Below, piece after piece: positions 21,679-60,538 of a stretch of DNA of 64,000 nt (its first letter is position 1; each line of letters starts with the position of its first letter). The notes under the pieces were generated by a model that was given only the letters and a program-made list of their open reading frames with translations, did not search any database and was not told the DNA's origin. Made by a program: the position numbers and the translations under genes. The stretch comes from Cyanophora paradoxa CCMP329 (lineage: Eukaryota; Plantae; Glaucophyta). The stretch spans positions 84,248 through 148,247 of the forward strand of contig QPMI01000682.1 of assembly GCA_004431415.1 (NCBI GenBank), read 5' to 3'.

Positions 21679-21773
21679 ACACATATTGAAAAACGAATTT
21701 AAATCCAGAGTGAATCGAGATCGCGAAGCGATCGAGATGAACGAGGGATTTAAATTCGTTTTTCAATATGTGT
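21679..21773. repeat. Terminal cassette of segment A: perfect 28-bp inverted repeat
   Basis: ACACATATTGAAAAACGAATTTAAATCC (21679-21706) and its reverse complement (21746-21773). Confidence 0.9.
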
Positions 21774-21780
21774 AATGGTT

Positions 21781-23151
21781 TTACAGATTGATTCGCCTCA
21801 GGCCGTCCTTATCGACTATAATGAAACTGTGCATGAGAGCACGAACATTAACAGTGATTGTCTGGTCAGAAGGCATGTATAGAGTGAGGAAAGAGGAGGA
21901 GGAGTTCGTGAGATCAACATAGCCAGACTGGGCAATGTTGCGAATCGCTTTCTCTCCATCAACACAGAATGGTAGACCACTGAGGACATATTTGTCTGCA
22001 ACCTTGTCCATATTCGAGCACTTGAAGGCATCCGCAATTAATTCGGCACCTTTGAGGAGAGGAATTGGCTCAGTAGCATAGAGACGTTGACCATTAATTT
22101 CAACAGTGAAAGTGATGTCTTTTGAGTTAGCATGCGTTTTTAGGACACTGTGGGAACCATTGAAACCATCAATACCTGCGGCATCACGAACTGAAACAAG
22201 AAGACCATAGACAAGACCAGAGATCTGTGACAGGTTAATACGATTTGGTTGAGCATTTCCTTTTGCAGCAAAATTGACACTGTCAACAAAACCAATATCC
22301 AGAGCAGGAATAGCCATACCAGTGGTCTTCACCTTCTCAATGACAGTAGCAAACAGTTCATCAGAAACATTAATAGCATGCATGTAAAGACGAGGAGAAG
22401 TGACTTTAATTTCGGGGGTTGTTGTTGCACCAATTCCAAAAGTGGTGATTTGTTGACCAACATGGGCAAGAGTAGCATTAGCAGTAGCACCAAGTCCATC
22501 ATCCTCTGTCTTATCAGCAGCTGTTCCACCAACAACAGGGAGAGAGCGACCACCATAAGAAGTCTCAACATAACCCTTTCCAGCATCCTTGAACCAGACA
22601 GTAACAACCATTTCACCAGATAAAGCACCAAGGGGAAGATATTGATTTAGCCAAGGCACTGGGATTTCAACGAAAAATGAGCCACCAAGTCGGTTGGTTC
22701 CATGAGCAGGGATACCATGAACCATGCCCATTGAGCGTTTCTTTTTAGCTAGTTGATCCTCCGAATAATAGACCAGGGGGAAATGAGCAAGGAAATCAGA
22801 AGGGATGTGGTAGGTGTAAGATCCATAGGTAATTTCAAGTCGCTGAACTAAAGCACCAACTGGGCGAGTGTATCCATTGCGAACTAGATCTTCACCAGCA
22901 AAAGTGACAGCTGGAAGGTCAAACGCAAGTTCGAGTTTTCCACAGAAATTGTAGCGAGGGAGCTTGAAAGAAATGCGATTTCCAGCATTATTCTCGAAAG
23001 TGTTGCTTGGGTTCACAACAACAAGAACTGGCTTCGACTTGGATTCAAGACCAAGCATGAGAGAGTTGTCCAAGAAGAACGCCTTGGCTTCTTCCGGGGT
23101 TGTTAGAGCTTCTTTCAGAGAAAGACGTTGGAGGGTCGAAGTAATATCCAT
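21781..23151 (-). CDS. Double jelly-roll major capsid protein (NCLDV-like PLV type)
   Basis: 456 aa; G..ISFKLPR...L.L.FDLP, VG.LV..LEI..G and IPVPW...LPL.AL pattern reminiscent of NCLDV MCP N-domains; context beside penton-like genes. Confidence 0.78.
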   Translation of the reverse strand: MDITSTLQRLSLKEALTTPEEAKAFFLDNSLMLGLESKSKPVLVVVNPSNTFENNAGNRISFKLPRYNFCGKLELAFDLPAVTFAGEDLVRNGYTRPVGALVQRLEITYGSYTYHIPSDFLAHFPLVYYSEDQLAKKKRSMGMVHGIPAHGTNRLGGSFFVEIPVPWLNQYLPLGALSGEMVVTVWFKDAGKGYVETSYGGRSLPVVGGTAADKTEDDGLGATANATLAHVGQQITTFGIGATTTPEIKVTSPRLYMHAINVSDELFATVIEKVKTTGMAIPALDIGFVDSVNFAAKGNAQPNRINLSQISGLVYGLLVSVRDAAGIDGFNGSHSVLKTHANSKDITFTVEINGQRLYATEPIPLLKGAELIADAFKCSNMDKVADKYVLSGLPFCVDGEKAIRNIAQSGYVDLTNSSSSFLTLYMPSDQTITVNVRALMHSFIIVDKDGLRRINL

Positions 23152-23204
23152 GATTATCTCTTTTATTATACTGCAACATAAAAATTCACCAATGATCCTT
23201 GATT

Positions 23205-24215
23205 TTACGCAAAATTCGCAATTACAGGATAAGATGGATGGGTTTCCGCCATTCTCCTCTTGAAGTATTCGTACACAGGATCACCAGCAGGTTCATCACC
23301 ATATCGAATTTCGAAGGTGAGGTGCACAGGTTGACCCTCGAAATCAATTGGTTCATTAACTGCATTCACAATGTCAACCGAAAATGTGGAAAGTCCCAGA
23401 TTCTTGTTATAGTATTTATAAATCGGATGGGCTTCTGTCGAATTATAAACGACATGCTCACCATAATCTTTATCAGGAACCACGATTTTGTGGAAATATC
23501 CAGTGAGGAGACCATCACCACATTGCACAAGATCACCCAGCTCCTTTACTCTCACAAATAGGACACTATCCCTGGTCTTCTCGGGTTCAAATGAAGATAT
23601 AATACCATGCACCATCGACCCAGTGAAGATACCATCAGTAAGAGTATTGTACACCTGTGATTGGATTGGTGTGTTACCATATCTCCCAGGATCAAGACCA
23701 AGCAGTCGAGCAGAACTCAAAAACCTCTGAATCTGTGCCTGGGTTGGGTTAATTGCGGTTGAGAAAGCCAGGTAAAACGGTATGGTGGAATGGAATATTA
23801 CTCGTTTCAGTGTATCATCCCATTTGCAACGAATAGCTACTGCTGGTTCTCTCAATGCAAGTTTGGAGTTAATTACATTCACCAGTTGTTGGTGGTTTTG
23901 AATGGGTGTGCTGCGACTTATCACAATGTGTTTCCATGATTCATAATCAGCAGCAGGTCGATCAGTTGGAATACCAGTGCTTCCTGCACCAGAAAGATAT
24001 TCAGACCAATAAAGGTAGAATGCATTATCTATTGTCACATCTCCTACTTTGGTTTCACCACTCACCATGGGGATGCTGTTATAGAATTCTGCTGAGACCA
24101 GTCTTACTGCTCTTACAAATTCATATGTGCTGGGGAGGCGAGCAATAAAACTCGAAGTAGGTCCATCTCCCGAAATTGTATTGAAAGAGCTCACTTCAAT
24201 GTAATCCACAGGCAT
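23205..24215 (-). CDS. Minor capsid (penton-like single jelly roll) protein 1
   Basis: IEVSS...F...LP...V..VRLVSAEFYN N-terminus; LFVRVKEL; IDFEG..VHLTFEI C-terminus. Confidence 0.7.
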   Translation of the reverse strand: MPVDYIEVSSFNTISGDGPTSSFIARLPSTYEFVRAVRLVSAEFYNSIPMVSGETKVGDVTIDNAFYLYWSEYLSGAGSTGIPTDRPAADYESWKHIVISRSTPIQNHQQLVNVINSKLALREPAVAIRCKWDDTLKRVIFHSTIPFYLAFSTAINPTQAQIQRFLSSARLLGLDPGRYGNTPIQSQVYNTLTDGIFTGSMVHGIISSFEPEKTRDSVLFVRVKELGDLVQCGDGLLTGYFHKIVVPDKDYGEHVVYNSTEAHPIYKYYNKNLGLSTFSVDIVNAVNEPIDFEGQPVHLTFEIRYGDEPAGDPVYEYFKRRMAETHPSYPVIANFA

Positions 24216-24243
24216 CTTCTTTTATCTATAAACATATATTAAA

Positions 24244-25172
24244 ATGATTCGGCTGGTCAATATAGATAGCAGAGACCGATCAGATGGACAAATAGAAAAC
24301 TCCTACAAAGTTTCACTCACAACCCAGTGACCAAACCAAGAGAATGTCGAGTTTTGTATGCAGAGATCCCAACAGCATCTATAACTCCATTGGAACAGAC
24401 CACCTTCTTGTCAGATTCTACTACCAAGGCATCTCTGAAACCAAGCAGGTCTTCCTTCTCCCAAGTGGTTACATAAATCAAGGTCATTTCGGGGTCACCA
24501 CTCCATATAATTATGGTCTGAATTTCACATTTACTGGAGCAACAATCTCACATATGCATTCAAGGTCTACTACAACCCTACCTCCTACAAATTGGAGTTT
24601 TACAGTAATGTTCAATTCGATATGGTTGCATCTACACAGAGATTGGGTAAACTTCTTGGTGTGAGTTCAGTGGAGTGGGTGGCTTCCACTGAACAGATTT
24701 ACGATTTCCCAGAGTCTGCAAGGTCTTTATATGCCCCGAGAATTTCCTTTATTTCGCAGGAATACCAATCACCCCAAACCATCCCCAATGGGGAATCACA
24801 TTCACAGGATATGAATTCGAGGCATCTCGCTTAAACTACAAGTTAGAAGCTTCCAAGATGACAGATATGAATGCAGAACAGTATTTATACATGCACATTA
24901 AAGAACTCTCCCCATTTGCTACAAACCACAATAATGTCCCACAATCTCAACCACAGAATCAAGGAGCGATTCTCAGATTGCAATTAAGTAAAGATATTGG
25001 ACAGTATGTTTATCACAGTGGAGAGCACAGTGAATACATAAAAATAACCGATCGAAACCTTGTGATTAGAGAGTTAACAGTTGAGTTTCGCGATTATTAT
25101 GGTGATCTTGTAGATATGAATGGAATTGACAACTCATTCCAGTTAGAGTTCTTGGCTATTGGTAATGATTAA
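24244..25172 (+). pseudogene. Minor capsid protein 2, frameshifted (true lesions or sequencing errors)
   Basis: MIRLVNIDSRDRS start; pieces in three or more frames are homologous to the intact 28224-29156. Confidence 0.75.
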
Positions 25173-25422
25173 ACCGATCCTGATAGAAGAACTCCCCATC
25201 TGTCTCGAAAATATTAAGAATGGGACTCTTTCGATCTTCTGTATACCATCGGCGAATTGTCTTATCCCATTTAGCACCATTCTTTTTCAAGAATCTACAA
25301 AGAGTTGATCTCCTTGTAATTCGCAATCCCATCTCTTGAAAGATCTCATAATGATCTTGTATTCTTTTCACAATCAAGATGTAAGTCCCATGGAAATTGT
25401 GATATTGCTGGTTAATCGGCAT
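25156..25422 (-). CDS. Small protein with DUF5710-like K.GAKWD...WY motif
   Basis: LKKNGAKWDKTIRRWY; ATG at 25422 preceded by TGTAAAG and an AAAAAATGACAA motif. Confidence 0.55.
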   Translation of the reverse strand: MPINQQYHNFHGTYILIVKRIQDHYEIFQEMGLRITRRSTLCRFLKKNGAKWDKTIRRWYTEDRKSPILNIFETDGEFFYQDRFNHYQ

Positions 25423-25469
25423 GTTTCCTTTACAGCATGATGGGAAATCGTTTGTCATTTTTTGGCGAA

Positions 25470-25565
25470 ACGAGAGTATCTCATGAGATAGATGAGAGAA
25501 TAACAGGTGTGTTTTCAGGGTTGGAGAAATCGGAGAAACATAGAGTATTGCGATTTCCGAGTTAC
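25470..25565 (+). pseudogene. speD: 3' remnant of AdoMetDC gene
   Basis: 25470-25612 matches 20536-20678 with a single mismatch (stop TAG to TAC). Confidence 0.9.
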
Positions 25566-25597
25566 TTGACACTGAGAAATTCAGAATTTCAGATGGT

Positions 25598-25772
25598 CTT
25601 ACTGAAAATGGTCAGATAATCGGGTGTGACACCTATTTAATTGACTGTGACGCCTCTTTAATTGACTGTGACGCCTGTGACGCCTGTGACGCCTACTTTC
25701 AAACTTTCTAAAATTTTCAAAAATGACAGACTTCTGAAAACAGCCGTCACAGCCGTCACAGGCGTCACACCC
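25598..25772. promoter_or_regulatory. Putative origin cassette, iteron type II (TGTGACRCC)
   Basis: CTTACTGAAAATGGT box; direct repeats at 25625/25646/25667/25676/25685; AT spacer; three inverted G(G/C)CGTCACA at 25743-25769. Confidence 0.6.
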
Positions 25773-25908
25773 AATTAAAAATGGAATCTATCTCTCTTAC
25801 TGGGATATTCAAAAATATATTCTTGTCTTACTGAAATCCGTCTTGTGACACCTCTGACACCTACAAAACACTATCCATTAATCCACCTTTTCGAAAATGC
25901 GAAGTTGT

Positions 25909-26061
25909 CTTACTGGAAATGGTCTGCAATTTCGCTGTGACACCTAATTTAATTGAGTGTGACGCCTGTGACGCCTGTGACACCTACTTTCAAACTTTTT
26001 AAAATTTTCAAAAATGACAGACTTCTGAAAACAGGCGTCACAGCCGTCACAGGCGTCACAG
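25909..26061. promoter_or_regulatory. Putative origin cassette, iteron type II (second copy)
   Basis: CTTACTGGAAATGGT box; direct repeats at 25936/25958/25967/25976; three inverted repeats at 26034-26060. Confidence 0.6.
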
Positions 26062-26174
26062 ACATTCTGCCCCCCTTACTACTCTTCTCAAAAACAGAAA
26101 TATATCTTACTGAATATCATTTGAATACTATCTGTCACACTTGATTTCATTTATTCTGTTTTATAGAACATCTG

Positions 26175-26380
26175 CAATCTAATCGATTGATCAATTGGAG
26201 ACCATGCAACTCTGTGACACTTTTTCGGTGCAAAAATGTAAATCCGCAATCTCATCGATTGTTTAATTGGACGTGATGCAGTTCCGATATATTCCAATAG
26301 AAAATCGCGCAATCTCTTCAATTGTTTAATTGGACATAATGCAACTCTGTGACACTTTTTCGGTGCAAATATGTACATCA
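26175..26380. repeat. Subterminal 72/63/72-bp array (shorter version of 20893-21348)
   Basis: Same units in the same orientation. Confidence 0.9.
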
Positions 26381-26382
26381 AT

Positions 26383-26443
26383 ATTAGTTTTTCAATATGT
26401 GTGGCATTAAACGAGGGATTTAAATTAGTTTTTCAATATGTGT
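26383..26443. repeat. Right terminus of segment B, with partial tandem duplication
   Basis: ATTAGTTTTTCAATATGTGT-GGCA occurs twice (ending 26402 and 26443); the second copy matches the A terminus including AACGAGGGATTTAAATT. Confidence 0.85.
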
Positions 26444-27130
26444 GGCAAGTGTAGCATTAGCAGTATCACCAAGACCATCATCTTCTGTCTTATCAGCAGC
26501 TGTCCCACCAACAACAGGGAGAGAGCGACCACCATAGGAAGTTTCAACATAACCCTTTCCAGCATCCTTAAACCAAACAGTAACAACCATTTCACCAGAT
26601 AAAGCACCAAGGGGAAGATAGTGATTTAGCCAAGGCACTGGGATTTCAACGAAAAATGAGCCACCAAGTCGGTTGGTTCCATGAGCAGGGATACCATGAA
26701 CCATGCCCATTGAGCGTTTCTTTTTAGCTAGTTGATCCTCCGAATAATAGACCAGGGGGAAATGAGCAAGGAAATCAGAAGGGATGTGGTAGGTGTAAGA
26801 TCCATAGGTAATTTCAAGTCGCTGAACTAAAGCACCAACTGGGCGAGTGTATCCATTGCGAACTAGATCTTCACCAGCAAAAGTGATGGCTGGTAGGTCG
26901 AAAGCAAGTTCGAGTTTTCCACAGAAATTGTAGCGAGGTAGCTTGAAGGAAATGCGATTTCCAACATTATTCTCAAAAGTATTGCTGGGATTCACAACAA
27001 CTAGAACTGGCTTAGACTTGGATTCGAGACCAAGCATAAGGGAGTTATCCAGGAAAAAGGCTTTCGCCTCCTCTGGGGTTCTTAGGGCTTCTTTCAGCGA
27101 AAGTCTTTGAAGAGTGGAAGTGATATCCAT
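26444..27130 (-). pseudogene. Major capsid protein, 5' half, truncated by the segment B terminus
   Basis: Near-identical to the N-terminal ~229 aa of 21781-23151 up to ...ANATLA, then switches into terminus sequence. Confidence 0.88.
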
Positions 27131-27183
27131 GATATTCTCTTTTATTATACTGCAACATAAAAAATCTACCAATGATCCTTAAT

Positions 27184-28194
27184 TTATGCGAAGCTTGTAA
27201 TTACTGGATAGGAAGGGTGAAGCTGTGACATTCGCATCTTAAAGTATTCATAAACTGGGTCCCCAGCTGGCTCATCATCATAGCGAATTTCAAAGGTCAG
27301 ATGAACAGGTTGACCCTCAAAATCAATTGGTTCATTTACAGCATTAACAATATCAACCGAGAAAGTGGATAATCCAACCTTCTTATTATAATATTTGTAA
27401 AGTGGGTGAGCTTCTGTTGAATTGTAAACAACATGCTCACCATAGTCTTTATCAGGGACCACTATTTTGTGAAAGTAACCAGTCAGAAGACCATCCCCAC
27501 ATTGAACCAGATCACCCAGCTCCTTTACTCTCACAAACAAAACACTGTCCCTGGTCTTCTCAGGCTCAAAAGAAGATAGAATACCGTTAACTCGAGTCCC
27601 AGTAAAGATACCATCAGTGAGAGCATCATAAACTTGTGATTGGATTGAGGAATTGCCATATCTTCCAGGATCAAGACCAAGCAGTCTACCTGAACTCAAT
27701 AGCTTTTGAATTTTTTGCAGGTTTGGATTTACAGCAAGTGAGAAAGCCAGGTAAAAAGGTTTTTCGGAATGGAATACTATTCGTTTCAGTGACTCATCCC
27801 ATTTGCAGCGAAGAGATGGTTTAGGATTTTTTAAATCGAACTTTTCATTAATAACATTCACCAGTTGTTGGTGGCTTTGAATGGGGGCTTTGCGACTTAT
27901 AATGATTTGTTTCCACTGTTCAAAGTCCTCAGCTGGGCGAACTGTGGGGATACCATCAATTCCAGCTCCCGCATATTGTTCAGAATAATAAATACTAAAT
28001 GAATTGTCAATTGTCACATCTCCTACTTTGGTTTCACCACTCACCATAGGGATGCTGTTATAAAATTCGGCTGATACCAGTCTCACAGCCCTCACATTCT
28101 CATAAGAACTGGGGAGTCTAGCCACAAAGCTTGATGTGGGACCATCACCAGAGATTGTATTAAATGAGCTAACCTCGATGTAATCCACAGGCAT
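27184..28194 (-). CDS. Minor capsid (penton-like) protein 1
   Basis: Homologue of 23205-24215, same length. Confidence 0.72.
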   Translation of the reverse strand: MPVDYIEVSSFNTISGDGPTSSFVARLPSSYENVRAVRLVSAEFYNSIPMVSGETKVGDVTIDNSFSIYYSEQYAGAGIDGIPTVRPAEDFEQWKQIIISRKAPIQSHQQLVNVINEKFDLKNPKPSLRCKWDESLKRIVFHSEKPFYLAFSLAVNPNLQKIQKLLSSGRLLGLDPGRYGNSSIQSQVYDALTDGIFTGTRVNGILSSFEPEKTRDSVLFVRVKELGDLVQCGDGLLTGYFHKIVVPDKDYGEHVVYNSTEAHPLYKYYNKKVGLSTFSVDIVNAVNEPIDFEGQPVHLTFEIRYDDEPAGDPVYEYFKMRMSQLHPSYPVITSFA

Positions 28195-28223
28195 TCTTCT
28201 TTTATCTATATTTATATATTAAA

Positions 28224-29156
28224 ATGAATCGACTTGTTAATATTGATAGCTGGGATAGAAGCCAAGGGGAATCTGAAAACTCTTACAGGGTCACCCTCAC
28301 AACTTCAGTAGAGAGACCAAGGGAATGCAGGGTTCTATATGCAGAGATTCCAAACAGTATCTATAACAGTGTGGGAACTGATCATTTAACAGTTGATTTT
28401 AACTACCAAGATGGTTCATACAATGAAATCATCACACAGAAAGTGTATCCCCTTCCCAGTGGCTACATTAACCAGGGTCATTTTGGGGTCACACATCCCT
28501 ATAATTATGGGCTGAACTATTCAAGCTTCAAAACCATTGCAGATAAAACTGTGTTTTTCGACTTCAAGATATTCTACAACCCAACAACCTATAAAGTGGA
28601 GTTTTACAGTAACCATGAGTTTCGTTTTATTGCAAGCAACAAGCGAATAGGGAAGCTTTTGGGTGTGAGTTCTACTGAATACACCACTGGGTATTATAGC
28701 ACTCCTCCTGTTGGTGGATCTCCATATCGACCTGAGAACCTTTTAAAGTATGATGGCAAACCTATTACACCTGATCACCCAGCATGGGGAATCACCTTCT
28801 CAGGACCCAGACTCTCCTCAAAGCCCTTGCAGTATTATTTCACCAGTAATAAGATGTCTGATTTGAATGCTGAGCAGTATCTGTACATGCATATTAAAGA
28901 GCTTGCCCCCTTTGCAAGTAGACATAATATAATCCCGAAATCGCAACCACATAACCAGGGAGCTATCCTTAGATTGCAATTGAGTAAAGATATAGGTGGC
29001 TATGTTTACCATAGTGGTGAGCATGCAGAATTCATTCAGATAAATGATAGAAATTTGGTGATAAGGGAACTCACAGTTGAGTTTAAAGATTACTTTGGTG
29101 AACTGATTGATATGAATGGAATCGATAATTCGTTTCAGTTGGAGTGTATCGAATAA
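28224..29156 (+). CDS. Minor capsid (penton-like) protein 2
   Basis: VNIDSWDR...AEIPN; YLYMHIKEL; LTVEFKD..G.LIDMNG...SFQLE. Confidence 0.75.
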   Translation: MNRLVNIDSWDRSQGESENSYRVTLTTSVERPRECRVLYAEIPNSIYNSVGTDHLTVDFNYQDGSYNEIITQKVYPLPSGYINQGHFGVTHPYNYGLNYSSFKTIADKTVFFDFKIFYNPTTYKVEFYSNHEFRFIASNKRIGKLLGVSSTEYTTGYYSTPPVGGSPYRPENLLKYDGKPITPDHPAWGITFSGPRLSSKPLQYYFTSNKMSDLNAEQYLYMHIKELAPFASRHNIIPKSQPHNQGAILRLQLSKDIGGYVYHSGEHAEFIQINDRNLVIRELTVEFKDYFGELIDMNGIDNSFQLECIE

Positions 29157-30702
29157 AGGCACCTGTAAAGTCAACTCTCATTGTGGGAGCATTCACATAC
29201 ACAAGGGGATAAATGCGAATATATTTGATTCTGAGAGAATAACCTATGTAAAAAGCATCCTTGATGCTGAGAGGAAATCCACTCAATAGAGCCACATCAC
29301 CAGAGTTGTGAGCATTGTTAATGTTCTCACAGACATATATTTTGTTTTGCCCATCTGATCGAATAAAAGACCAGTTGATCCCATCAGTGGATGTTGCCAC
29401 ATTGAAAGTCTTAATAAAAGCATTTGTTTCCCCTGATCCATAGGCAATCACAGAGGAGAGTTCAAAAGTATATGGGAAAGCAACTTGAAGATATTCAGTG
29501 GGAGTTTCCCATATTTGTTCAGGAGCAAAGGCACCAGCTTCCCAGCCAAATGCTGAAGGTCTTGACATGAAAGGCTCTTTACCTGTCACAGAGGATGAGG
29601 CAGTAAAGGCATCATCTGCAAGCTGATACCAATTGGCATCCAAAGGAGGTGATGTAGTGAGAGTGGATGAGATGTAAGCCTTTGTAGGGTTCTTTAGTTC
29701 ATAGTTTGCTACTAGTAGGCTGCAAAGCTTATTAATCATATCATTGTTTGCTGCTATGTATGTTTCAGTGAATGCTAGCATATCTGGGATCTTAGAAGTG
29801 TCATCCAGGGAGCTTACTATGTGATTTGGAAGAGGGACTGATAACCTATAGTATCTCCCATAATCCTGATCATAGTTGTAGGGTAACAACTCCTCCATCT
29901 TATCAAGGGCAGAAAGCTCACTTGCAGCCATGAGCATGTTAATCAATGGGCTTCCATCTGTTGAGGCAATCCATGAGAGAATGCCCCAGCTGTTGACAGT
30001 CTCATAAGCATAACCCACATAATCAGACTCTAAATGTGGGTCCACCTCTCCACAAGAGATGCTTATTACTATAATGTCATCATCATCACTGTAAATCTTC
30101 TTTGCATGGCTGTAACCACACACACTGGGATTATTGTTTCCCGAAATGGCACCATCAATGAGACAGACAAATACTCCCCGATTGAAATCAACAATGCTTA
30201 CAGGAGAGAAATATGTAGGAGCAGCAGAAGTAGCCCTAGCAGCAATCTTACAAGGCATAAAGTTGTAGTTGTTGTCATTTGTGATAAATATTGGTTTCAT
30301 ATTCTGAGTATCAAAGGATGTAATCACAATGTCCTTTAGGGAATCCTGTATTAGTGATTCACCAGTAACGGAATTAATTGCAGTCTCCAAGGGTCCCACA
30401 TCATACTTTGTGTTAAATAGGGCATTTTCGATGATATTTCGAGGATTTGCAAAAATCAAGGGCAGTTGAGTTAGGTAAATATTGTGTAAATCGTTTGCTG
30501 TCAGTTTAGGTTCACCTGGTTTATCAGGATGCCTGATATTCAAACCTATTGCAATGATCCCACCAGTGGAAGTTCCACTTACAAGATCCACAAGATCGAT
30601 TATTCTTCTGCCAGTTCGATTTTCGATTTCTTTTAGCAGCCTGGTTATGATAATGCCCCTTGCACCCCCGCCAGAAAGACTTAAAACGATCTTCTGAGGC
30701 AT
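29083..30702 (-). CDS. Patatin-like phospholipase with discoidin domain (copy 2)
   Basis: Same motifs as 10673-12214; the C-terminus reads through into the convergent penton gene. Confidence 0.9.
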   Translation of the reverse strand: MPQKIVLSLSGGGARGIIITRLLKEIENRTGRRIIDLVDLVSGTSTGGIIAIGLNIRHPDKPGEPKLTANDLHNIYLTQLPLIFANPRNIIENALFNTKYDVGPLETAINSVTGESLIQDSLKDIVITSFDTQNMKPIFITNDNNYNFMPCKIAARATSAAPTYFSPVSIVDFNRGVFVCLIDGAISGNNNPSVCGYSHAKKIYSDDDDIIVISISCGEVDPHLESDYVGYAYETVNSWGILSWIASTDGSPLINMLMAASELSALDKMEELLPYNYDQDYGRYYRLSVPLPNHIVSSLDDTSKIPDMLAFTETYIAANNDMINKLCSLLVANYELKNPTKAYISSTLTTSPPLDANWYQLADDAFTASSSVTGKEPFMSRPSAFGWEAGAFAPEQIWETPTEYLQVAFPYTFELSSVIAYGSGETNAFIKTFNVATSTDGINWSFIRSDGQNKIYVCENINNAHNSGDVALLSGFPLSIKDAFYIGYSLRIKYIRIYPLVYVNAPTMRVDFTGAFIRYTPTETNYRFHSYQSVHQSNL

Positions 30703-30745
30703 CTTTTACTTATCAGGAATTTTATAAATCCATATAGTAAAAGCC

Positions 30746-35002: not shown

Positions 35003-35021
35003 CTATTTCTTTATTATAAAG

Positions 35022-36092: not shown

Positions 36093-36114
36093 TATTGTTA
36101 CTTTAAAGTAAAGA

Positions 36115-37347: not shown

Positions 37348-37368
37348 TTTTCTTTTGATAGAGTAAGA

Positions 37369-37632
37369 ATGTCAAATATTTACCAAGTAGTTCTAACTGA
37401 TACCGAAAAGTTGGGAATGGAATATTGCGCTGCATCTGTTCAGGATTGGATTGATAATGCTGCCCACAACAGGGCAAGAATTGCAATTGATGAGATTGTT
37501 CAGAAAGAGATCCATTCATGTATATCAACAGGCTTTCAGATACCAACCTCAAAGGAAGCAATTGTGTTACAGGCATTCCAAAGGGGAACTGTTAAAAAGG
37601 CGATTGAATATAACAATGTCACAGAAGAGTAG
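37369..37632 (+). CDS. Small fibre-associated protein (copy 2)
   Basis: Homologue of 17733-17996. Confidence 0.75.
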   Translation: MSNIYQVVLTDTEKLGMEYCAASVQDWIDNAAHNRARIAIDEIVQKEIHSCISTGFQIPTSKEAIVLQAFQRGTVKKAIEYNNVTEE

Positions 37633-37670
37633 TGAACATTATTTTTCTTTCCTTCTTAGTAAAAGAAGCA

Positions 37671-38516: not shown

Positions 38517-38539
38517 AAGATATATCCCTTTAATGTAAA

Positions 38540-43426: not shown

Positions 43427-43677
43427 AATTATTTCAAAAAACCTAAGGGTCCCCCCTTAGACTCAACAAAACAATGATAAAATCATATAAGTTTCATGTA
43501 TAATTACGATTGAATTCAATAAGAGATCGATTTGTTAATATAAACAAATGAATCATTTATGGATCTTAATCGAGTTTAGCGATATGTTTCCGATTAAATG
43601 AATTAAATTTAATTAAATTTAATCGAGAAAGTACATGAATATAATATCGATTAAATCAATTAACTTTTAGACCCATC

Positions 43678-43705
43678 ACACATAGTAAAATGCGGAGTTT
43701 TAACC
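43678..43705 (+). repeat. Inner arm of the 28-bp terminal inverted repeat of segment C
   Basis: ACACATAGTAAAATGCGGAGTTTTAACC; exact reverse complement at 60511-60538. Confidence 0.9.
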
Positions 43706-50800: not shown

Positions 50801-51451
50801 TGGCCGGCGTCTTCACGGAGTTCCAGTCGCCGAGAAGGATGAGGTGCGCGGTCGAGCGCGATCGGAAGTCCGCGTAGATGCGCTCGATGCATTCGAGGAG
50901 CGCCGCCTGATCGGTCTTGTGCTCAGGCTTCCGCTGGGTGGCCGGCATGTATACGCTCACTACGAAGAGCTGGCGGTTTCCCTTGAAGCGCATTTCACAG
51001 CCGGCAAGCCGGCCCGGGTAGTGATAGTGGCGCGCGATGTGCCGCGCCCAGGGCGCCGCCACCCATAGCGCCGCTCCGTTTCCTTTCGGTTTTGTTTTCT
51101 TAATTGAGTGGATTAGGCGACCCCGCGTGATCGAGCTCTTGGGGGGCTCGCCGGGCTCCGCTGCCGGGGTGAAGAGCGCCGAGTGCAGTTCGGCGCGCGT
51201 GACTGAGAGCTCTTGGAGAGCCATCACGTCGACCCCCATTTCACGGCGAAGTCTTCGGCCTGCTGAAGCCGGCCCTCGGACGTGCCCCGCACGTTAAAGG
51301 TCATCATCCTGAGATTCCCCTCCGGCTTGTGGCGCATGAGCGATGGGGCGGGCCTATGAGGGGCTCCCTGAGGCGTAATGGGTGGTTGGGAAAAGGTCGC
51401 CAAACGAGATATGCCCGGAGCGTTAGTGTTGACGTCTACAGCGGCAGACAC
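44886..51451 (-). CDS. LINE polyprotein APE-RT-RNase H-Zn finger (many homopolymer frameshifts)
   Basis: TFNVRG/LQE/GDWN APE motifs; RPITL, QDI..AYDSV, PQG and YADD RT motifs; WTDGS/KAEL/VKVKAH RNase H motifs; CAGC...HVFLC finger. Confidence 0.9.
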
Positions 51452-51826
51452 GTTAGGGGGGTCGGACAGCGTCTAGGGTTGGAGGATGTCTGTGCTCGGC
51501 GGGACGCGCGCAGCGGTCCGACTGATCAGCTAGTTGGTCACATCTGGCTGCCCAGAGATGCGCGTGCACGTGGTTCCAGGCGTGCGTGTGCCTAGCCGCC
51601 CCGGACCCGTCGCCTGTGCGCCGCATCGTCCAAGTCTCAAAAGTCTGCGTTCGGGAAGCCGTCAAATTACAGCTGACACGTACAGTAGCGGCCTCGCAGG
51701 AAAGGGGCGCTAAATGCGCGTCTGGGCGGGAAATGGGCGATGCGGCTTGCCCAGCCTCAGCGACTTGGCGCTTGGGGGAGGAGGAGGAGGCGGGTCTGAG
51801 AGCGGGTCGGTAGAGAGCGGGTCGGC

Positions 51827-54800
51827 GGATACCCCCCGTGGGAAAAAAACAGGAAGGCGCCTGCCAACCCGCCTAGCTCGCAGCGTAGCGCTGCGTGCGC
51901 GATCACCAGTGCGAGAGTAGAGGCCGCGACAGCCTAGGTAGCGTCCGCCGCGATGTCTGCGTAGGTATGCCGGCCACTCTCTCCAAACCGCCCCGCCAAC
52001 GCGGCAACATCGCCCGGGAGTCCCTGGGTGATGTAACTGCAAGCAGTTACCGCGTCTCACGCACACCCTGGACCGCCCTCTTGAATCAATCTCCTTGCCG
52101 AGCTACGTCTGGCCTCCCTGGCCACGCCTCGCCATACACCCGCTGCCGACCCGCTCTCTACCGACCCGCTCTCAGACCCGCCTCCTCCTCCTCCCCAAGC
52201 GCCAAGTCGCTGAGGCTGGGCAAGCCGCATCGCCCATTTCCCGCCCAGACGCGCATTTAGCGCCCCTTTCCTGCGAGGCCGCTACTGTACGTGTCAGCTG
52301 TAATTTGACGGCTTCCCGAACGCAGACTTTTGAGACTTGGACGATGCGGCGCACAGGCGACGGGTCCGGGGCGGCTAGGCACACGCACGCCTGGAACCAC
52401 GTGCACGCGCATCTCTGGGCAGCCAGATGTGACCAACTAGCTGATCAGTCGGACCGCTGCGCGCGTCCCGCCGAGCACAGACATCCTCCAACCCTAGACG
52501 CTGTCCGACCCCCCTAACGTGTCTGCCGCTGTAGACGTCAACACTAACGCTCCGGGGCATATCTCGTTTGGCGACCTTTTCCCAACCACCCATTACGCCT
52601 CAGGGAGCCCCCTCATAGGCCCGCCCCCATCGCTCATGCGCCACAAGCCGGAGGGGAATCTCAGGATGATGACCTTTAACGTGCGGGGCACGTCCGAGGG
52701 CCGGCTTCAGCAGGCCGAAGACTTCGCCGTGAAATGGGGGGTCGACGTGATGGCTCTCCAAGAGCTCTCAGTCACGCGCGCCGAACTGCACTCGGCGCTC
52801 TTCACCCCGGCAGCGGAGCCCGGCGAGCCCCCCAAGAGCTCGATCACGCGGGGTCGCCTAATCCACTCAATTAAGAAAACAAAACCGAAAGGAAACGGAG
52901 CGGCGCTATGGGTGGCGGCGCCCTGGGCGCGGCACATCGCGCGCCACTATCACTACCCGGGCCGGCTTGCCGGCTGTGAAATGCGCTTCAAGGGAAACCG
53001 CCAGCTCTTCGTAGTGAGCGTATACATGCCGGCCACCCAGCGGAAGCCTGAGCACAAGACCGATCAGGCGGCGCTCCTCGAATGCATCGAGCGCATCTAC
53101 GCGGACTTCCGATCGCGCTCGACCGCGCACCTCATCCTTCTCGGCGACTGGAACTCCGTGAAGACGCCGGCCACGTCCCGCATCCGCGCGGGACGGTTCG
53201 TCCAGTCCTGGACGCCGGAACGCGAGTGGTGGGGAAAACTGACCGGCACCTGGGCACTAGTTGACGCGGCGACACAGAAAGGCCACGAACACGAAGTTAC
53301 CTTCATCAGGCGCGGCCCGAGCCAGCACGGCGCCGAAGAGGATGGCGGGGACGACGGCGCCGACGACTCGGACTCGGAACAGGACCAGCAAATGGACGGG
53401 CCCGCCGTCGCCGAAGGCGCCGCGGTCATCTCGGCAGGACGTATCGATGCGGTGTTGCACTCTGCAGGTCTCGCGCCAGCGCTCCTGGCGGTGCACCCGC
53501 TGCCGCCAGAGGTGGCGCTACCGCACCCCTCTGACCACTTCCCGGTCATGGCCGACTACGATCTGCTCAAAGCCGAACTCGTCAGACCGCCCGCGGGCGA
53601 TGCCCGCCCGGCGCACCCGCCGCCGCTCTTCGCACCGCACCTACTTGAGAAGGAGAAGCTGCCGGCCTTCCGAAAGGCTGTAGAAGACCGTCTGCAAGCC
53701 CTGGAAAGCGATCTTGAGAAAGCGCTAGGCGCGGCGGGCACGGAACAAGAGCGCAGGGACCGGGTCAGCTCTCTCTACCGACAGGCCACGGAGGCGGTGC
53801 TGACGCTCGCTAAGGAACACAAATGCTTGAAAGCCCGCGGATCGCGCCGCCCACTCGCAGAGCGGTGCCGTGGCAGCTGGTCATGTCCAAGAAAGTGGAG
53901 CGCCTGATCGCTGGATGGACTGTTGAAGCGCCCGGAGGCTTGCCGTCGGCCCCGCTGGTCGCCCGGATCGAGAAACTGGAGGCTCTCATCAAAGGGCTCG
54001 TCCCCGGACCCGAACCCATGCCCCGCCGCCCCGTACGCGACGCTGACGACGAGGCGCCGTTCCCGGGGCGCTACGTAGCGTGGCGGCTGTACTTCCGGTC
54101 GCTGAACGCATGGCGCAACCGCGTCCGCCGGCGCCACCAACACGAGACGCGCGCAGAGAAGCAGCGACAGATCCAGGAATTCGTTACTGCGCGCCAGGCC
54201 CGGTTTGCAGACCCGCGCAAGCTGCGCAGCTATCTAGACTCCATTCTGGAGCGGTCCAGGGGGGAGCCGATCATGCACGTCACCCGCCTGGCGCGCGAAG
54301 GCAACTTCTATGAAATTTACACGGCCCCGAGGAGGTGAAGGCAGTGATGGCGGAGCACTGGCGTCAGTGGTGTGCGAAGAGAAACCCCTGGTAGGGTGCA
54401 CAGCGGACTTAATACCCGACTCCCAGCTCGCCTTCCTGCCCCCGACTTCTGGCGCGCGCTCTACCGCCCCTCGGGACGCACGTGGCGACCGCGGAAGCCT
54501 TCGCGGGAGTCATGGCTGAGCCTACGTACGAAGAGCTAGGGGCACACGTGCGCTCGCTCACGGATGGAGCGGGAGGGCCCTCCAACTGCACGAACGCGAT
54601 CCTGAAGACGCTCTGGAACCCGACCTGCCGGACGCCATGGATCCAGAGGCGTACCCCCCCGCGGTCGTCGGCTCCTGATGGCCATCGTCTGCGAGGCCCT
54701 CCGCCTGCGCGACCTGCCCGCCGAGATGTGTGAGAGCAATATCTTCGGGATCCCAAGAACGGGAGCTGGGACGGAGACATTGAAGGGAACCTCCGCCCGA

Positions 54801-57800
54801 TCACGCTGCAGGAAGTTGGCCTCAAGCTAACGACGGGCCTCGTCACGAAACGGCTAGCCGAGGCCATCGAGAAGCACGGAATCCTTAAGGGGTAAATTAT
54901 GGCTTCAGGAAGGCTAAGGCGACAGATGATGCCCTTCACCTAATGGTCGCTATTCTAGAGGACGCTAAGGAGCACCGCAAGCCCATCTACCTCTTGCTAC
55001 AGGATATCAGACGGGCGTACGATTCAGTTTCCTGGGCCAGCATGGAGCTCTCCCTCCGACGCATCGGGGCCCCGAGACGTACATCGACCTGCACCGCAAC
55101 ATATTCGAACGACGCCGGGCGCGAGCTATCACGGGCCACGGACTGTCAGACGTGTTTGAACTCGAATGTGGGCTCCCGCAGGGCGGCATCGAATCCCCGC
55201 TCCACTGGCTCATCTTCTACGATGCCTTGCTCTGCGCTCAACAAGAATTGGACAGGCTCGAGCAGGAAAAGGGGGCGCGGGGGTCGCGTACGTCATGGGC
55301 ATGGGCGAAGACGACGCGGACTTCGCCCCCGCACGGGTGACCGGGAGCGCCTACGCGGACGACACGCAGTGGATGAGCGGATCGGCCGAAGGGATCCAGA
55401 TGCTCGCGGACGTGGCGTCTGAATTCTTCCGCCTGCACGACATCGCCGTCAACGCGCGGAAAACAGAGTTTGCGTACAACAACGTCTCACCCGAGCCTGC
55501 ACCCCCGCTGCTCGGCAATCCCGCGTCCCGGTCGGCAAGAAGCTGAAACCGGGCGAGCATTTCAAGCTGCTCGGCGTCTACCTGACCGCGAACCTGTCGT
55601 GGAAGGAGCAGATCAGACAGATGGAAGCGCAGGCTCGCGAGACGGTGGCGGTCATAGCTCGTAAGCAGCTGACCGCGCAAGAGGCCTGCTACGTTGTCGA
55701 GGCCGTCGTGCAGGCGCGGATCGCCTACGGGCTCAAAGTGACGCCGCTCACAGAGAGGCAGTGCGATCGCCTAGATGCCATCTGGATGCGCGTGGTTAAG
55801 CACCATGGGGCCTGGCGGCATCGACTTCCAACTACGCGCTCTGGAGCCACGGCACGTACAGCCTGCCGCGCACAGCGCACCTGATGGCCAAGAACCAAAT
55901 CACGGATCTGCTCGTCCGCCTCTGTGGCGAGCCGGAAGAGCTGCTATCTCAGGTGATGATGCACCGCATCCGGGACCTCCAGCGCAAGCTAGGCGTCCCG
56001 CTGCTGCCGACCGAGTTCCTGAACGCCCCAGTGTCACGCCAGCTTGCTCGATCGAATGCGATCGCCGCAGTGATGCCGCTCCTGCAGCGCCGGCTCTACC
56101 GGATCCAGTCCAACCACGCCCGCTTCTTGTTCACGCCGTACCCCCCCGCAGCCACTTGGCCCGACCCGCGGAACTGCGCCGGGAATTCGTGCTTACCTCA
56201 CACATTCCCCGGGAAGTGTTCAGCACGGCTGCGCCCGCCCTCCACCGCGCACGGCTCTACTGGATGTCCGACGTCACGGCGCGCGATGGGGAACGCCTCT
56301 GCACCTGGCGAGACCTGCACCTCCGCGCCCCCCGCGGCACGCTCCCTTGGGCAGCGCCCGCCTGGTGGAAGGCGGTGGCCAAGGCCCTCACGATCGACGG
56401 GCGCGGTTCGGGCGCCCTCCGATACCCATGCGGCAACCGCCCGGTACCCCTTCCTCGGCCATGGTACAGCTTCCGGGCGGGCAAGGAAGTTAATTCACCA
56501 ACCGGGAGACTTCGTCTGCTACTACGACCTCGCAACGATTCACGAGACGGATGCGGTACCGGAAATCGGCCGGGTCCGCTCCGCTGAGGCCGAGGCCGGC
56601 AGCCTAGTAGCGACGGAGTGCCGGCTGGAGCACTGGGTCCCCGTCCCAGAAGAGGCCGACGACGAGGCCAACGGAGCCTACTGCCGCTGCGATGGCCACT
56701 GTCAGCTCGGACCCGCGAAGGGCCGCCCGCCCCAGCTGCGCGCCGCTTTAATATCGTACCGGGAGAGGGCCGCCGCCACTGGCACGACAACCACGTCTGC
56801 CCTCAAGGCGCCGGCGCGGCCTGCCGGGCGACGAGCACCTGCGATGACGAGGGCAAGTACGGGACGGCGGTGGGAGGATGGGTAGAGCACGCGTCCGCAC
56901 TCTGCACGATCCCCGGCACGGTGGAGCTAGTAGAAGTGTCGGGCGCCCCGTGGAAGAATGCGAGGGGCAGGTACAGACGCGCTCGGGGCGCGCCAGTCGC
57001 CAGGTCCTGCGCCAAGCCCGTCTTGAATACTTCAAGCCCTTCAGGCAGGCGGCCGCGACCATCACTGCGCACCGATGGCGGATGCTGCTGCAGGCAAAGC
57101 AGGAGGGCGATGAGAGGGTCAACTGGCACCTCCTCTCCGAGCCCGACGCCGCTCACCTCGCCACGCTCGAGGCGAACCCGCCCGACTTGCCCCCCTGCCG
57201 CAAGATGAAGCGCCCCGGTCAGCTCCAACAAGGAGGCGCGCGAGCTATACTACTATCAGGCCGATCCGTACAGTTGGGTTGCATACCTGGAGACCTGGAA
57301 GGGCCTCGAAGCCCGCTACCGCAAAGAGCACCTGGAGGCCGAGGCGGCGTCCGGCGGCTCATACGTGGCCGACGCCCCAGCGTACGCCTGGACGGACGGG
57401 AGCCTGAAAGAGGGCCAGACGGTTAACGCTCGCGCGGGCTACGCAGTACACTGGCCGGAAACGGACCTCAGAACTGGCGCAAGCCTGCACCCGCCGGGTA
57501 TCCTCACGGACTTCTTTGCCCGGCTCCGGGCCTGCAGGAGATCAACAAGGCGGAACTCCAGGCGGCGCTCATGGCTGACCTGCTCTCGCCTTTCGGAGCG
57601 GTTCTACACGTCGACAACATGAACGCGATCCGCTGGTATTCCGATTTCGTCCAGCACGCGAGCTGCCGCAGCCCGCGGGAATACATCCGGCACGCCTGCT
57701 CCGCGGAACTGTACGCATGGAGCAAGCTCAGGACAATGCTAGAGGAGCGCGGGCGGCCGCTCAAACTCGTCAAAGTCAAAGCGCACGCGAAGGGCGACGC

Positions 57801-60097
57801 CCGCGACCCCACAACGACATCGCGGACGCCGGAGCGAACGTGGCGGCCGACCTGGATCTGGCGGACGAAAACCGGCATGAACCTCTCTTTCTGCCGCCGG
57901 CCTTCAGCATGCCTGCGGTGCTCACCATCAGCGACCCCGACGGGCGCACACGACGGGTGGAAGGGGACCCCAAGGCACACATGGACGCACTTCACGAGCA
58001 CCAGACGCACTTTGCCTGGACCCAACAACCGCTGGCTGGCGCGCTCCTGCGCCGAAGCGCCGACGGCGCAGACATAGCAGGGCTATATGCGGAAACGAGC
58101 GTAGGCTCCCGATTCCAAGGAGCCAATGGAGCCCGCAACGCGCTATTCAAGTTTCGGACGCAGCTGCTCTGTAGCTCGCTACCAGCGAACGAAGTCCGGG
58201 TACGTGACCAGAAGGAACTCTACGCCGCCTGCAACCCTGGGGGACGCTGTGCGGGCTGCGCCACCAGAACGCCTTTCCCTCGTGCAGAGACTAGCGGCCC
58301 GACAGCCTCACAGAACAGCCAGACTGCACCAGAGGCCTCGCATGCCCAACCAGCAGCGGGCCCCAGCCGCCCGAACCGGGCACCGACGGCTCTTACCGCA
58401 GGCCCGACTGAAACTTTCCCGCACGTCTTCCTGTGCCCGGGTCCGCATGCGGTCGCGCACCGCGCGGAGACTGCTCGCGAACTGAACCGACTTCTGCTCT
58501 GCGCATACAGAGAGGCCCACGGACTCACAGCGCCGCCAGCAGGAGCCCTCCTTGCCCCCGACCTGGTCCCAATCTTCCTCCGCGTCGCGGACGACGACGC
58601 CGAGGCGCGCAGCTACGATGGTAGGCCGTACGCGTACCCGCGCCTCTGGGTGCTCCAGGGCCTTGCTCCGCAGAGTCTAGAAAGCGCCCTCGCACGCTGC
58701 CTGAACCTTGCACCCCGGTACGCGGCACGCGCAGCTAAACGCGTTCGGCAGACGCTTCTGGAGCGGGCCCGACGCCTCTGGTCACGTCGCTGCGAAATCA
58801 ACGCGGAGTGGGAACGCGACTGCCGCGTCTCCCAGGCCTCAAAGAAGCGACCGCGCCCGCCCCGCACGGGCGCCCGCGCCCGAGAGCGGGCCCGCGGCCC
58901 CGGACCTGTAAGGAAGTCTGCGCCGCCTGCGACGGGCCGATTCGCCTTCACAATCTACTCAACGCCGCTCGGAACGCAGACTGCCCACCGGAGTACGCGG
59001 GCTGGAAGGCGGCGCTCCGCGCCCAAGAGCTCTACGATTGCGTCAAGGTACGCCCTTGGGAGCCACATCCTAGCCCGCTCTAAACGGTACCCCGAGTCGC
59101 GCGAAAGGGGGGGGGGGGGGGGGGGGGCTACGTCGGGAGGAGACTCTCGACACCACCTACCTACTACTTCACCATACCTAGTCCTCGAGAAACTTCCCTG
59201 CTCTACTCTTAGCCTCGCACACACTAGATATAGCCGCCCCGTCCGACTCGCTGGCCCCGCCCAAGCGAGCGCCTGCCTTGCCTCCCTCTCCCGTTCTGCC
59301 CTCCTGCTCGCTCTCTTGGCCCTGCCTCCCACTCACGACCTCGCCAACGCTCCTCGCGCCTCGACAGGGAGGGAACGATGGACCGGAAGGCTTGGCGGAA
59401 GGCTTCGGCTGGTCGTTGCACCCACCAGATACCCCGGCCATCGTGCCAGGACCGTGGGTTGAAGGACCGCCGCGGAGGGGGCTCGCAATTGCCCGCGGCG
59501 GGGTGCGGCGGCTGGTTCGAGGCTGGAAGCCCTGCTGACCGAGAAATCCGACCCTCCCCCTCCCCGCCACGGCCGGCGCCGACCTTCTCCGTCCCGCCCC
59601 ACTTCTTCCCCGCAACGTCCCCCTCGCCTCATTCCCCTCGGCCCCTCTACGCCGACGTGCTTCCACCCGCGCTTCGGGCGAGCGGCCCCTCGACGCGGAG
59701 CCCGCCGCGCTAGCTGTAGTCGCGGCCGCGTCGAGAGTAGGCAGATTAGACCGCGGGTCCGTCCTGGCTTTCCTACCGTACAGTAGAACAGCCCGCGAGC
59801 TCCGGACGTCCCGACGGTCCCTAGGCAGGCAGCACTAGCAGGCAGCACTCGTAGACCCCTGGGTAGTCCTCTCTGTAGCCTAGTCCTAAGCTAGGCTAGA
59901 TGTATAGGTAGTAGCTCTCTGCTCTGGGTTAGCTTTGCTTTAGTTTACGTCTCCTTGACTAGCTCCACCCTGTCCGATGGCTGATAGGTTCCCTACCCGG
60001 CGTAACCAGTAGGCTCATCTTTCGACTTGACACTTTACGGACACCTCAGTTCTATCATTAGCCGTATTGTCTCGGTGTGTGCGAATTCATTGATAAA
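51827..60097 (+). mobile_element. Full-length non-LTR retrotransposon (inner copy, same family, opposite strand)
   Basis: Starts GGATACCCCCCGTGGG like the outer 5' end; ends ...ATTCATTGATAAA; TSD AGAGAGCGGGTCGGC at 51812-51826 and 60098-60112. Confidence 0.92.
52519..59083 (+). CDS. LINE polyprotein APE-RT-RNase H-Zn finger (frameshifted)
   Basis: MMTFNVRG, LGDWN, SDHFPV; AYDSV, PQGG, YADD; WTDGS; stop at 59083. No ORF1 is seen upstream. Confidence 0.9.
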
Positions 60098-60510
60098 AGA
60101 GAGCGGGTCGGCAGCGGGTGTATGGCGAGGCGTGGCCAGGGAGGCCAGACGTAGCTCGGCAAGGAGATTGATTCAAGAGGGCGGTCCAGGGTGTGCGTGA
60201 GACGCGGTAACTGCTTGCAGTTACATCACCCAGGGACTCCCGGGCGATGTTGCCGCGTTGGCGGGGCGGTTTGGAGAGAGTGGCCGGCATACCTACGCAG
60301 ACATCGCGGCGGACGCTACCTAGGCTGTCGCGGCCTCTACTCTCGCACTGGTGATCGCGCACGCAGCGCTACGCTGCGAGCTAGGCGGGTTGGCAGGCGC
60401 CTTCCTGTTTTTTTCCCACGGGGGGTATTCCCAAGATATACACAGATTATCGATTGATTGAAATAGAATATACGAGATATATCAACAAAATCAATTAAGA
60501 TTAAGCCGAG

Positions 60511-60538
60511 GGTTAAAACTCCGCATTTTACTATGTGT
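60511..60538 (-). repeat. Right terminus of segment C (outer arm of the 28-bp inverted repeat)
   Basis: GGTTAAAACTCCGCATTTTACTATGTGT at the AT-to-GC transition. Confidence 0.9.

What the first reader, a model, noticed from the sequence alone, without database searches (positions are those of the whole stretch)
21679..60538. Russian-doll proviruses whose ends land at the major capsid gene of the resident element
Seen: three right termini end in TATGTGT. The A end sits 7 bp past the MCP stop codon of B. The B end cuts the MCP of C in mid-frame at 26443/26444. The C end cuts a GC-rich ORF. No left termini occur between them, so this is not a head-to-tail array. Inference: A is inserted in B, B in C, and C in host DNA. 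Two hits at MCP could mean targeting of a resident virus capsid locus (safe harbour, or competitor knockout), producing a locus that archives successive infections. With only two events, a general preference for AT-rich DNA remains possible.
Basis: partly seen in the sequence, partly recalled or inferred. Interest (0 to 1): 0.85.

Follow-up and report, generated by a model that had tools for sequence, protein, structure and literature searches.

The report
Nested algal proviruses, capsid aim unproven
Three related DNA viruses lie end-to-interior in an algal chromosome, likely one inserted inside the next, with three retrotransposon-type insertions on top; such nesting is already known in other protists, and the two landings at the capsid gene are most likely coincidence.

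Summary
Three Polinton-like virus (PLV) right ends finish in TATGTGT at 21773, 26443 and 60538. A's end lies 7 bp past B's capsid (MCP) stop, B's end cuts C's MCP after codon 229, and C's end cuts a GC-rich ORF. The host is Cyanophora paradoxa. Additions: A and C end in 28-bp hairpins; C also holds a 2.7-kb retroposed insert and a LINE inside a near-identical LINE, each with a perfect 15-20-bp target duplication; B's end is damaged. Nesting is likely but unproven, because left ends and viral target duplications lie outside the window, no genome was held, and no contig bridging a junction was seen. Capsid targeting is not supported: the two sites are 691 bp apart, share no sequence, one leaves the ORF intact, and two random hits do this about 5-6% of the time. 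The two clean flanks of other ends I could read (of some 40-50 ends) are GC-rich and match nothing viral in the window. AT preference fails too. Nested PLVs, hairpin ends and retroelements in PLVs are published. Ordinary nest; interest 0.3.

The parts
1..21773 (.). Element A, right part of a Polinton-like virus (runs off the window's left edge)
   Evidence: About 41% GC. A32 ATPase 4-753, rve integrase 8789-10207, patatin+F5/8 10673-12214, fibre genes, AdoMet decarboxylase 20230-20631; primase-helicase 2394-4790 and DNA polymerase 5928-8624.
21679..21773 (.). A terminal hairpin, 28-bp perfect arms, ends TATGTGT
   Evidence: (-34.3 kcal/mol, DNA parameters)
21774..21779 (+). Candidate target duplication of A (AATGGT); partner copy not seen
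   Evidence: Native B-family sequence: the uninterrupted site in run X3 continues through it (record 6)
21774..26443 (.). Element B, right part (4,670 bp): MCP, minor capsid-like gene, 310-aa-type gene, short ORF, AdoMet decarboxylase remnant, damaged end
   Evidence: multi-copy in four runs
21781..23151 (-). B major capsid protein, 456 aa, frame intact
   Evidence: ESM Atlas Capsid_N clusters at 0.97-0.98; Foldseek top hits are double jelly-roll capsids (model pLDDT only 38)
23205..24215 (-). B 336-aa gene, probable minor capsid protein (by position and size only)
   Evidence: no Pfam or PHROG hit
26383..26406 (+). 24-bp copy of B's terminus plus the first 4 bases of the MCP target (identical to 26424-26447)
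   Evidence: implies a repair event after the B/C joint formed (inference)
26444..27130 (-). C major capsid gene, first 229 codons, cut by B's end; candidate target duplication GGCAAG at 26444-26449
   Evidence: 93% identical to B's MCP, with a 265-bp identical tract
26444..60538 (.). Element C, right part (14,788 bp without its inserts)
39924..42633 (+). GC-rich retroposed insert in C's AdoMet decarboxylase gene; A-tail, 20-bp target duplication (39904-39923 = 42634-42653)
   Evidence: no relevant Rfam match
43678..43705 (+). Inner arm of C's terminal hairpin (partner 60511-60538)
43872..60432 (-). Outer LINE (endonuclease, reverse transcriptase) in the loop of C's hairpin; 16-bp target duplication (43856-43871 = 60433-60448)
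51827..60097 (+). Inner LINE, same family, opposite strand, inserted about 330 bp from the outer copy's 5' end; 15-bp target duplication (51812-51826 = 60098-60112)
   Evidence: (6 substitutions in 7,916 aligned bases)
60449..60538 (.). Last 90 bp of C, ending TATGTGT
60539..61433 (-). GC-rich ORF of unknown family cut by C's end; candidate target duplication CAGGCG at 60539-60544
   Evidence: no Pfam, PHROG or Atlas hit; identical to Cyanophora paradoxa gene model P0004, which ends at the same junction

Best explanation
Three endogenous Polinton-like viruses of Cyanophora paradoxa are likely nested, C in repeat-rich host DNA, B in C and A in B, each probably joined by the viral rve integrase with no sequence or gene preference. 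Shown: the three junctions, the gene content, the terminal hairpins, the uninterrupted B-family site, and three retroelement insertions with perfect target duplications. Inferred: the integrase joins the TATGTGT end to a staggered cut and duplicates about 5-6 bp, so left ends and the 3' half of C's capsid gene should lie upstream of the window. Also inferred: the stack survives because inserting into an existing provirus or repeat costs the host little, so proviruses may pile up more than uniform insertion predicts, while the gene hit inside the resident is random. After joining, B's end lost its hairpin in a repair event, and B and C likely exchanged a 265-bp capsid tract by gene conversion.
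For: Joints exactly at the terminus with native target sequence (record 6) and zero microhomology at B/C. rve integrase in A. Right flanks share no motif: AATGGT, GGCAAG, CAGGCG in the window, and different ones again. Chance of two hits this close 0.046-0.068, same gene 0.059. The 2 clean right flanks shown are 63% and 57% GC, lie on single contigs and match nothing in the window. The 24-bp duplication holds 4 target bases, so the B/C joint predates it. Depth bookkeeping at the MCP 3' end in X3 leaves 69 unexplained, about one single-copy path, as the A/B joint would need (weak). 14 nested viruses are reported in Halocafeteria (10.64898/2026.07.28.741278, section 8).
Against: No left end or viral target duplication was seen. 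All three elements face the same way (1 in 4 by chance), which tandem models predict. The flank sample is tiny: 2 clean flanks of an estimated 42-51 A-type ends, and it is biased against viral flanks, which give short contigs. A triple nest is expected at most 0.15 times per genome under uniform insertion with rough inputs, so some non-uniformity is likely and its cause is untested.
Confidence: 0.65

Rival explanations
1. Head-to-tail neighbours trimmed by adjacent deletion: the integrase joined one element's right end to an internal site of the next element downstream and deleted the DNA between, so no left ends or target duplications remain.
For: Gives the same exact-terminus joints. All three elements are co-oriented. 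Tandem integration of these viruses, including a three-element Cyanophora contig, is reported (10.64898/2026.10.13.758929, section 13; the contig prefix is tied to C. paradoxa).
Against: Needs two separate deletions after three tandem insertions. The elements are distinct types (B vs C about 80% identical outside MCP; C's end unrelated to A's), not copies from one tandem event.
Confidence: 0.17
2. One or more junctions are chimeras of an error-prone long-read assembly of a multi-copy family.
For: The family is multi-copy and the window has single-base indels against short-read contigs (table 4). No bridging contig was displayed.
Against: Mis-joins arise in shared sequence, whereas these joints have 0-1 bp of overlap and fall on the terminal base three times. 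The duplication spanning the B/C joint and three perfect retroelement duplications argue that the local sequence is faithful. Contig assemblies drop rare paths between high-copy repeats (tool note).
Confidence: 0.08
3. The integrase is steered to the capsid locus of resident proviruses (safe harbour or competitor knockout).
For: 2 of 2 virus-in-virus joints touch MCP; for a gene named in advance the chance is 0.002-0.005. Nest depth exceeds a uniform model. One single-copy contig in X3 also leaves the MCP at its stop codon, with unknown sequence (record 7).
Against: The gene was chosen after the fact (0.059 for any gene). Sites are 691 bp apart with no shared sequence. A leaves the MCP frame intact. 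C and the 2 clean X3 flanks are in GC-rich DNA that is not capsid. No chromodomain or other tether was found on the integrase. No sequence-specific integration was found for related virophages (PMC8547959, passages).
Confidence: 0.07
4. A general preference for AT-rich DNA draws new copies into resident viruses.
For: Elements are about 40% GC in a 65% GC host.
Against: MCP is 44% GC, richer than the element bodies (40-41%) and ends (31-38%); C's site is 76% GC; the two clean X3 flanks are 57-63% GC.
Confidence: 0.03

Closest known systems
Nested endogenous virophages and PLVs of Halocafeteria seosinensis (bioRxiv 10.64898/2026.07.28.741278; passages and sections 7-8 read)
   Same: Viruses inside viruses (5 PLVs, 9 virophages, one triple nest), insertion in LINE-rich regions, TEs inside viruses, terminal palindromes, rve integrase, two replicases in one element.
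   Different: Different host and capsid lineage; those nests have both ends and TSDs marked; the passages I read claim no capsid-gene preference.
Glaucophyte (Cyanophora paradoxa) PLVs catalogued in PMC12220804 (passages and supplement rows)
   Same: Table S6, Glaucocystophyceae row: of 156 elements, 139 have the A32 ATPase, 85 rve integrase, 0 tyrosine recombinase, 89 lipase, 66 AdoMet decarboxylase. The text notes discoidin (F5/8) domains, sometimes fused to patatin. This is the gene set of A and C. GC-rich retroelements nested in PLVs are described.
   Different: Only 2 of 156 scored under that table's MCP-POL column; this capsid has just 2 detectable relatives. I saw no per-element coordinates or TSDs for this species in the held supplements.
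Tandem and mosaic polisuviruses (bioRxiv 10.64898/2026.10.13.758929; passages and section 13 read)
   Same: Stacked elements, second replicases, internal repeats near replication modules, proposed recombination between stacked elements.
   Different: Described as tandem integration, not as insertion into the capsid gene.
EMALE virophages with Ngaro retrotransposons in Cafeteria burkhardae (PMC8547959; passages)
   Same: AT-rich provirus in GC-rich host, rve integration without sequence specificity, retroelements inside the virus including its terminal repeats.
   Different: Virophage rather than PLV; Ngaro uses a tyrosine recombinase, whereas the inserts here are non-LTR with long target duplications.

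Membership tests
Polinton-like viruses (Polisuviricotina) | Double jelly-roll major capsid protein | tested here: met
   Atlas clusters with Capsid_N at 0.97-0.98, family on 12-18% of members; Foldseek top hits iridovirus, mavirus and PBCV-1 capsids, E down to 3.5e-05 in PDB and 1.1e-06 in BFVD. Caveat: model pLDDT 38; no Pfam hit.
Polinton-like viruses (Polisuviricotina) | A32-like packaging ATPase | tested here: met
   PF04665, E 3.1e-10, element A; not visible for B or C
Polinton-like viruses (Polisuviricotina) | Minor capsid (penton) protein | tested here: inconclusive
   336-aa gene beside MCP has no family hit; not folded
Polinton-like viruses (Polisuviricotina) | Integrase (rve or tyrosine recombinase) | tested here: met
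   rve PF00665 E 0.002, below the curated cut-off; PHROG transposase E 7.4e-12; element A only
Polinton-like viruses (Polisuviricotina) | Terminal inverted repeats at both ends with 4-6-bp target duplication | not testable with these tools
   Left ends lie outside the window; no genome held; not found in public collections
Polintons/Mavericks proper | Protein-primed family B polymerase plus rve integrase | tested here: inconclusive
   898-aa polymerase, PHROG DNA polymerase E 1.2e-07 with endonuclease VII domain; PF03175 not hit
Polintons/Mavericks proper | Adenovirus-like cysteine protease | tested here: inconclusive
   No protease hit among 24 proteins scanned, but no element is complete in the window
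Site- or gene-targeting integrating element | Recurrent insertion at one site or shared target motif | tested here: not met
   Sites 691 bp apart; three window flanks and the X3 flanks differ
Site- or gene-targeting integrating element | Genome-wide enrichment in the target gene | tested here: inconclusive
   Only 2 clean outside flanks readable of about 42-51 ends, biased against viral flanks
LINE (APE-type non-LTR retrotransposon) | Endonuclease, reverse transcriptase, 3' A-tail, variable target duplication | tested here: met
   PF03372 E 1.6e-12, PF00078 E 4.6e-14; tails and 15-16-bp duplications

The most novel reading that the evidence does not exclude
The integrase of these glaucophyte PLVs is tethered to the capsid locus of resident proviruses, within a window of about 1 kb and without a sequence motif, so incoming viruses disable or shelter in relatives and build loci that record successive infections.
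Probability: 0.07. Interest if true: 0.8.

Novelty: new member of a known kind. Interest (0 to 1): 0.3.

Why it matters
As it stands, this is a clear example of a known process: a six-element stack (three proviruses, three retroelements) in a host with about 156 catalogued PLVs. It shows how such stacks disable older copies and may swap sequence between virus types. It would matter much more if capsid-directed integration were real: that would be a virus-against-virus targeting rule not found in my seven literature searches, and a genome-wide count in this species could test it in a day.

Tried and rejected
Upstream sequence: no genome held. Terminal patterns found 0 loci in viral, metagenome and prokaryote genome collections. 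MCP and integrase searches found no confirmed related loci; the ATPase search did not complete. 0 of 10 window proteins are in the cluster collection. No RNA holder was listed, which says nothing about expression. Junction support from contigs: none bridging was displayed; the tool warns that contigs show presence, not absence. One of the three right-flank rows blends two contigs (agreement 0.58) and was dropped from the flank count; it also matched nothing in the window. The native sequence left of the MCP stop is not in the window above chance, so it is not part of any visible right end. Rejected: 43678-60538 as a separate element (no flanking duplication, same 28-bp arm as A's hairpin). Rejected: self-insertion of B (B and C differ by about 20% outside MCP and at 10 sites in the 180 bp next to the cut). 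Rejected: the 16-kb inverted repeat as a fold-back artefact (asymmetric, inner copy has its own 15-bp duplication). P0004 is not an empty-site control, since it ends at the same junction. PDB sequence searches gave nothing useful. The Rfam hit at 43318-43440 is far below its gathering score. PMC10120064 had no passage for six terms. 10.1101/2025.02.07.637071 (passages) only adds that LINE cargo in polintons is known. Earlier-findings look-ups by place and by sequence were empty. Supplements of the two bioRxiv preprints were not seen and may list nested insertion sites.
Full report
OBSERVATION. The first 40 kb of the window is about 40% GC and gene-dense; most of the rest is about 65% GC. TATGTGT by itself is not enriched (7 found, 5.6 expected), but three matches are true element ends. 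At 21773 the end is the outer arm of a 95-bp hairpin with 28-bp perfect arms; 7 bp later comes the stop codon of a 456-aa ORF. At 26443 an end 97% identical to A's over 34 bp is joined to a second copy of that ORF, cut after codon 229. At 60538 a different end, again with a 28-bp arm whose partner is at 43678, cuts a GC-rich ORF. No MCP 3' half and no second integrase, ATPase, polymerase or primase occur in the window.

WHAT THE ELEMENTS ARE. A encodes an A32 ATPase, rve integrase, patatin with an F5/8 domain, fibre-like proteins and AdoMet decarboxylase, plus a primase-helicase and a DNA polymerase. The 456-aa protein has only 2 relatives among 1.84 billion representatives. It resembles Capsid_N clusters, and a low-confidence model (pLDDT 38) retrieves double jelly-roll capsids first, so the MCP call stands. 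Its closest relative is labelled Cyanophora paradoxa, and a gene model of that species is identical to the window up to the C junction, which fixes the host. Table S6 of PMC12220804 lists 156 glaucophyte elements with this gene set. In short-read contigs of four runs the family is multi-copy; terminal depth in X3 suggests 42-51 A-type ends. B's short right arm is also at multi-copy depth, so B is a family type, not local damage. B and C are about 80% identical outside MCP, and C's terminal region shares next to nothing with A's.

C is interrupted three more times. A 2.7-kb A-tailed insert sits in its decarboxylase gene with a 20-bp duplication. A LINE sits in the loop of its terminal hairpin with a 16-bp duplication. 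A second copy of that LINE sits in the first, reversed, with a 15-bp duplication; the two differ by 6 substitutions in 7,916 aligned bases. This explains the large inverted repeat. B's end has lost the hairpin region and carries a 24-bp copy of its own terminus plus four bases of the capsid target. I infer a repair event after the B/C joint formed. B and C share a 265-bp identical tract in MCP, with 10 differences on one side and 35 on the other; gene conversion is the likely cause.

IS IT NESTING? For: in run X3 an uninterrupted MCP 3' end continues through AATGGT at about six-copy depth (record 6), so A is joined to native sequence without filler. The B/C joint has no microhomology. Depth at the MCP end splits as 563.6 = 430.8 + 63.7 + 69.1, and the remainder equals about one single-copy path, which is weak support for the A/B joint. 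Left ends could not be read. Tandem neighbours trimmed by adjacent deletion would look the same from this side, and the shared orientation (1 in 4 by chance) slightly favours that rival.

IS THE CAPSID TARGETED? The two sites are 691 bp apart in gene coordinates. Two uniform hits in a 20-30-kb element fall this close 4.6-6.8% of the time, or in the same gene 5.9% of the time. The small figure of 0.2-0.5% applies only to a gene named beforehand. The targets share no sequence, and A spares the MCP frame, though it may remove 3' signals. Of 33 contigs laid at A's end in X3, 9 were partly laid; 6 of 8 loose-end rows were shown, 3 were right flanks, and 1 of these was a blend and dropped. The other 2 are 63% and 57% GC by my count and match nothing in the window. 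This sample is small and biased against viral flanks, so it rules out obligate targeting only. AT preference fails because MCP is 44% GC against 40-41% for the bodies, and C's site is 76% GC. One point favours non-random placement: with 156 elements, an assumed 20-kb mean length and a 100-Mb genome, a triple nest is expected at most 0.15 times, and 0.001-0.004 times for a family of 25-40 copies. So PLV-in-PLV stacking may be enriched, by survival or by preference; I could not separate these.

MECHANISM. Most likely (0.65): successive rve-integrase insertions, C then B then A, with short target duplications (inferred from known rve behaviour, PMC12220804 passages), kept because repeat or provirus DNA tolerates them (inferred), followed by retroelement insertions (shown), end repair and gene conversion (inferred). 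The order of the LINE insertions relative to A and B cannot be told.

COMPARISON. Nested PLVs and virophages, including a triple nest, and palindromic ends are reported for Halocafeteria (10.64898/2026.07.28.741278, sections 7-8). Tandem stacks, one from C. paradoxa, are in 10.64898/2026.10.13.758929 (section 13; for the species). Retroelements in proviruses and sequence-independent integration are in PMC8547959 (passages) and PMC12220804 (passages). Adintovirus-like contigs in C. paradoxa were noted in PMC8502044 (one passage). Seven searches (listings only, except papers named here) showed no report of capsid-directed integration; the library omits most subscription papers. The elements work like PLVs and meet the capsid, ATPase and integrase tests; paired ends and target duplications were not testable.

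VERDICT. Observation confirmed; nesting likely; capsid targeting unsupported but not excluded (0.07). New member of a known kind; interest 0.3.

Noticed in passing
window 43872-60432: A LINE inserted in reverse into the 5' region of a near-identical LINE, making an 8-kb inverted repeat inside a viral terminal hairpin; both copies very young.
   Followed up: yes
window 21679-21773 and 43678-60538: Two otherwise unrelated termini both have exactly 28-bp hairpin arms starting ACACATA, which suggests a constrained structure for integration or hairpin-primed replication.
   Followed up: partly
window 2394-4790 and 5928-8624: Element A carries two replicases. The N-terminus of the primase-helicase has a motif I recall as TVpol/PolA-like (recalled, not tested).
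   Followed up: no
window 4837-5058 vs 20664-20885: An 85% copy of part of A's terminal region lies just after the primase-helicase gene; B and C carry different short repeats at the equivalent terminal place.
   Followed up: no
window 10673 and 29145-29149: C matches B up to 29145 and matches A from 29149: a sharp module boundary between the capsid block and the patatin-fibre block.
   Followed up: partly
window 22643-22907 vs 26622-26886: 265-bp identical tract between B and C capsid genes; most high-depth contigs carry a 3-base insertion there that both lack.
   Followed up: partly
window 39924-42633: 2.7-kb GC-rich A-tailed insert with internal 115-bp repeats and a long G run; no recognisable gene or RNA family.
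   Followed up: partly
window 21781 (run X3, record 7): A 1,042-base single-copy contig leaves the MCP at its stop codon into about 1 kb of other sequence that the tool did not show; it could be a variant flank or another rearrangement at the capsid end.
   Followed up: no
window 21781-23151: The capsid protein is a near-orphan: 2 relatives in 1.84 billion representatives, so standard capsid profiles may miss this lineage.
   Followed up: partly
window 61861-63709: A second, diverged LINE-like fragment with RNase H (about 65% to the first LINE over 538 bp) abuts the ORF that C cuts.
   Followed up: no
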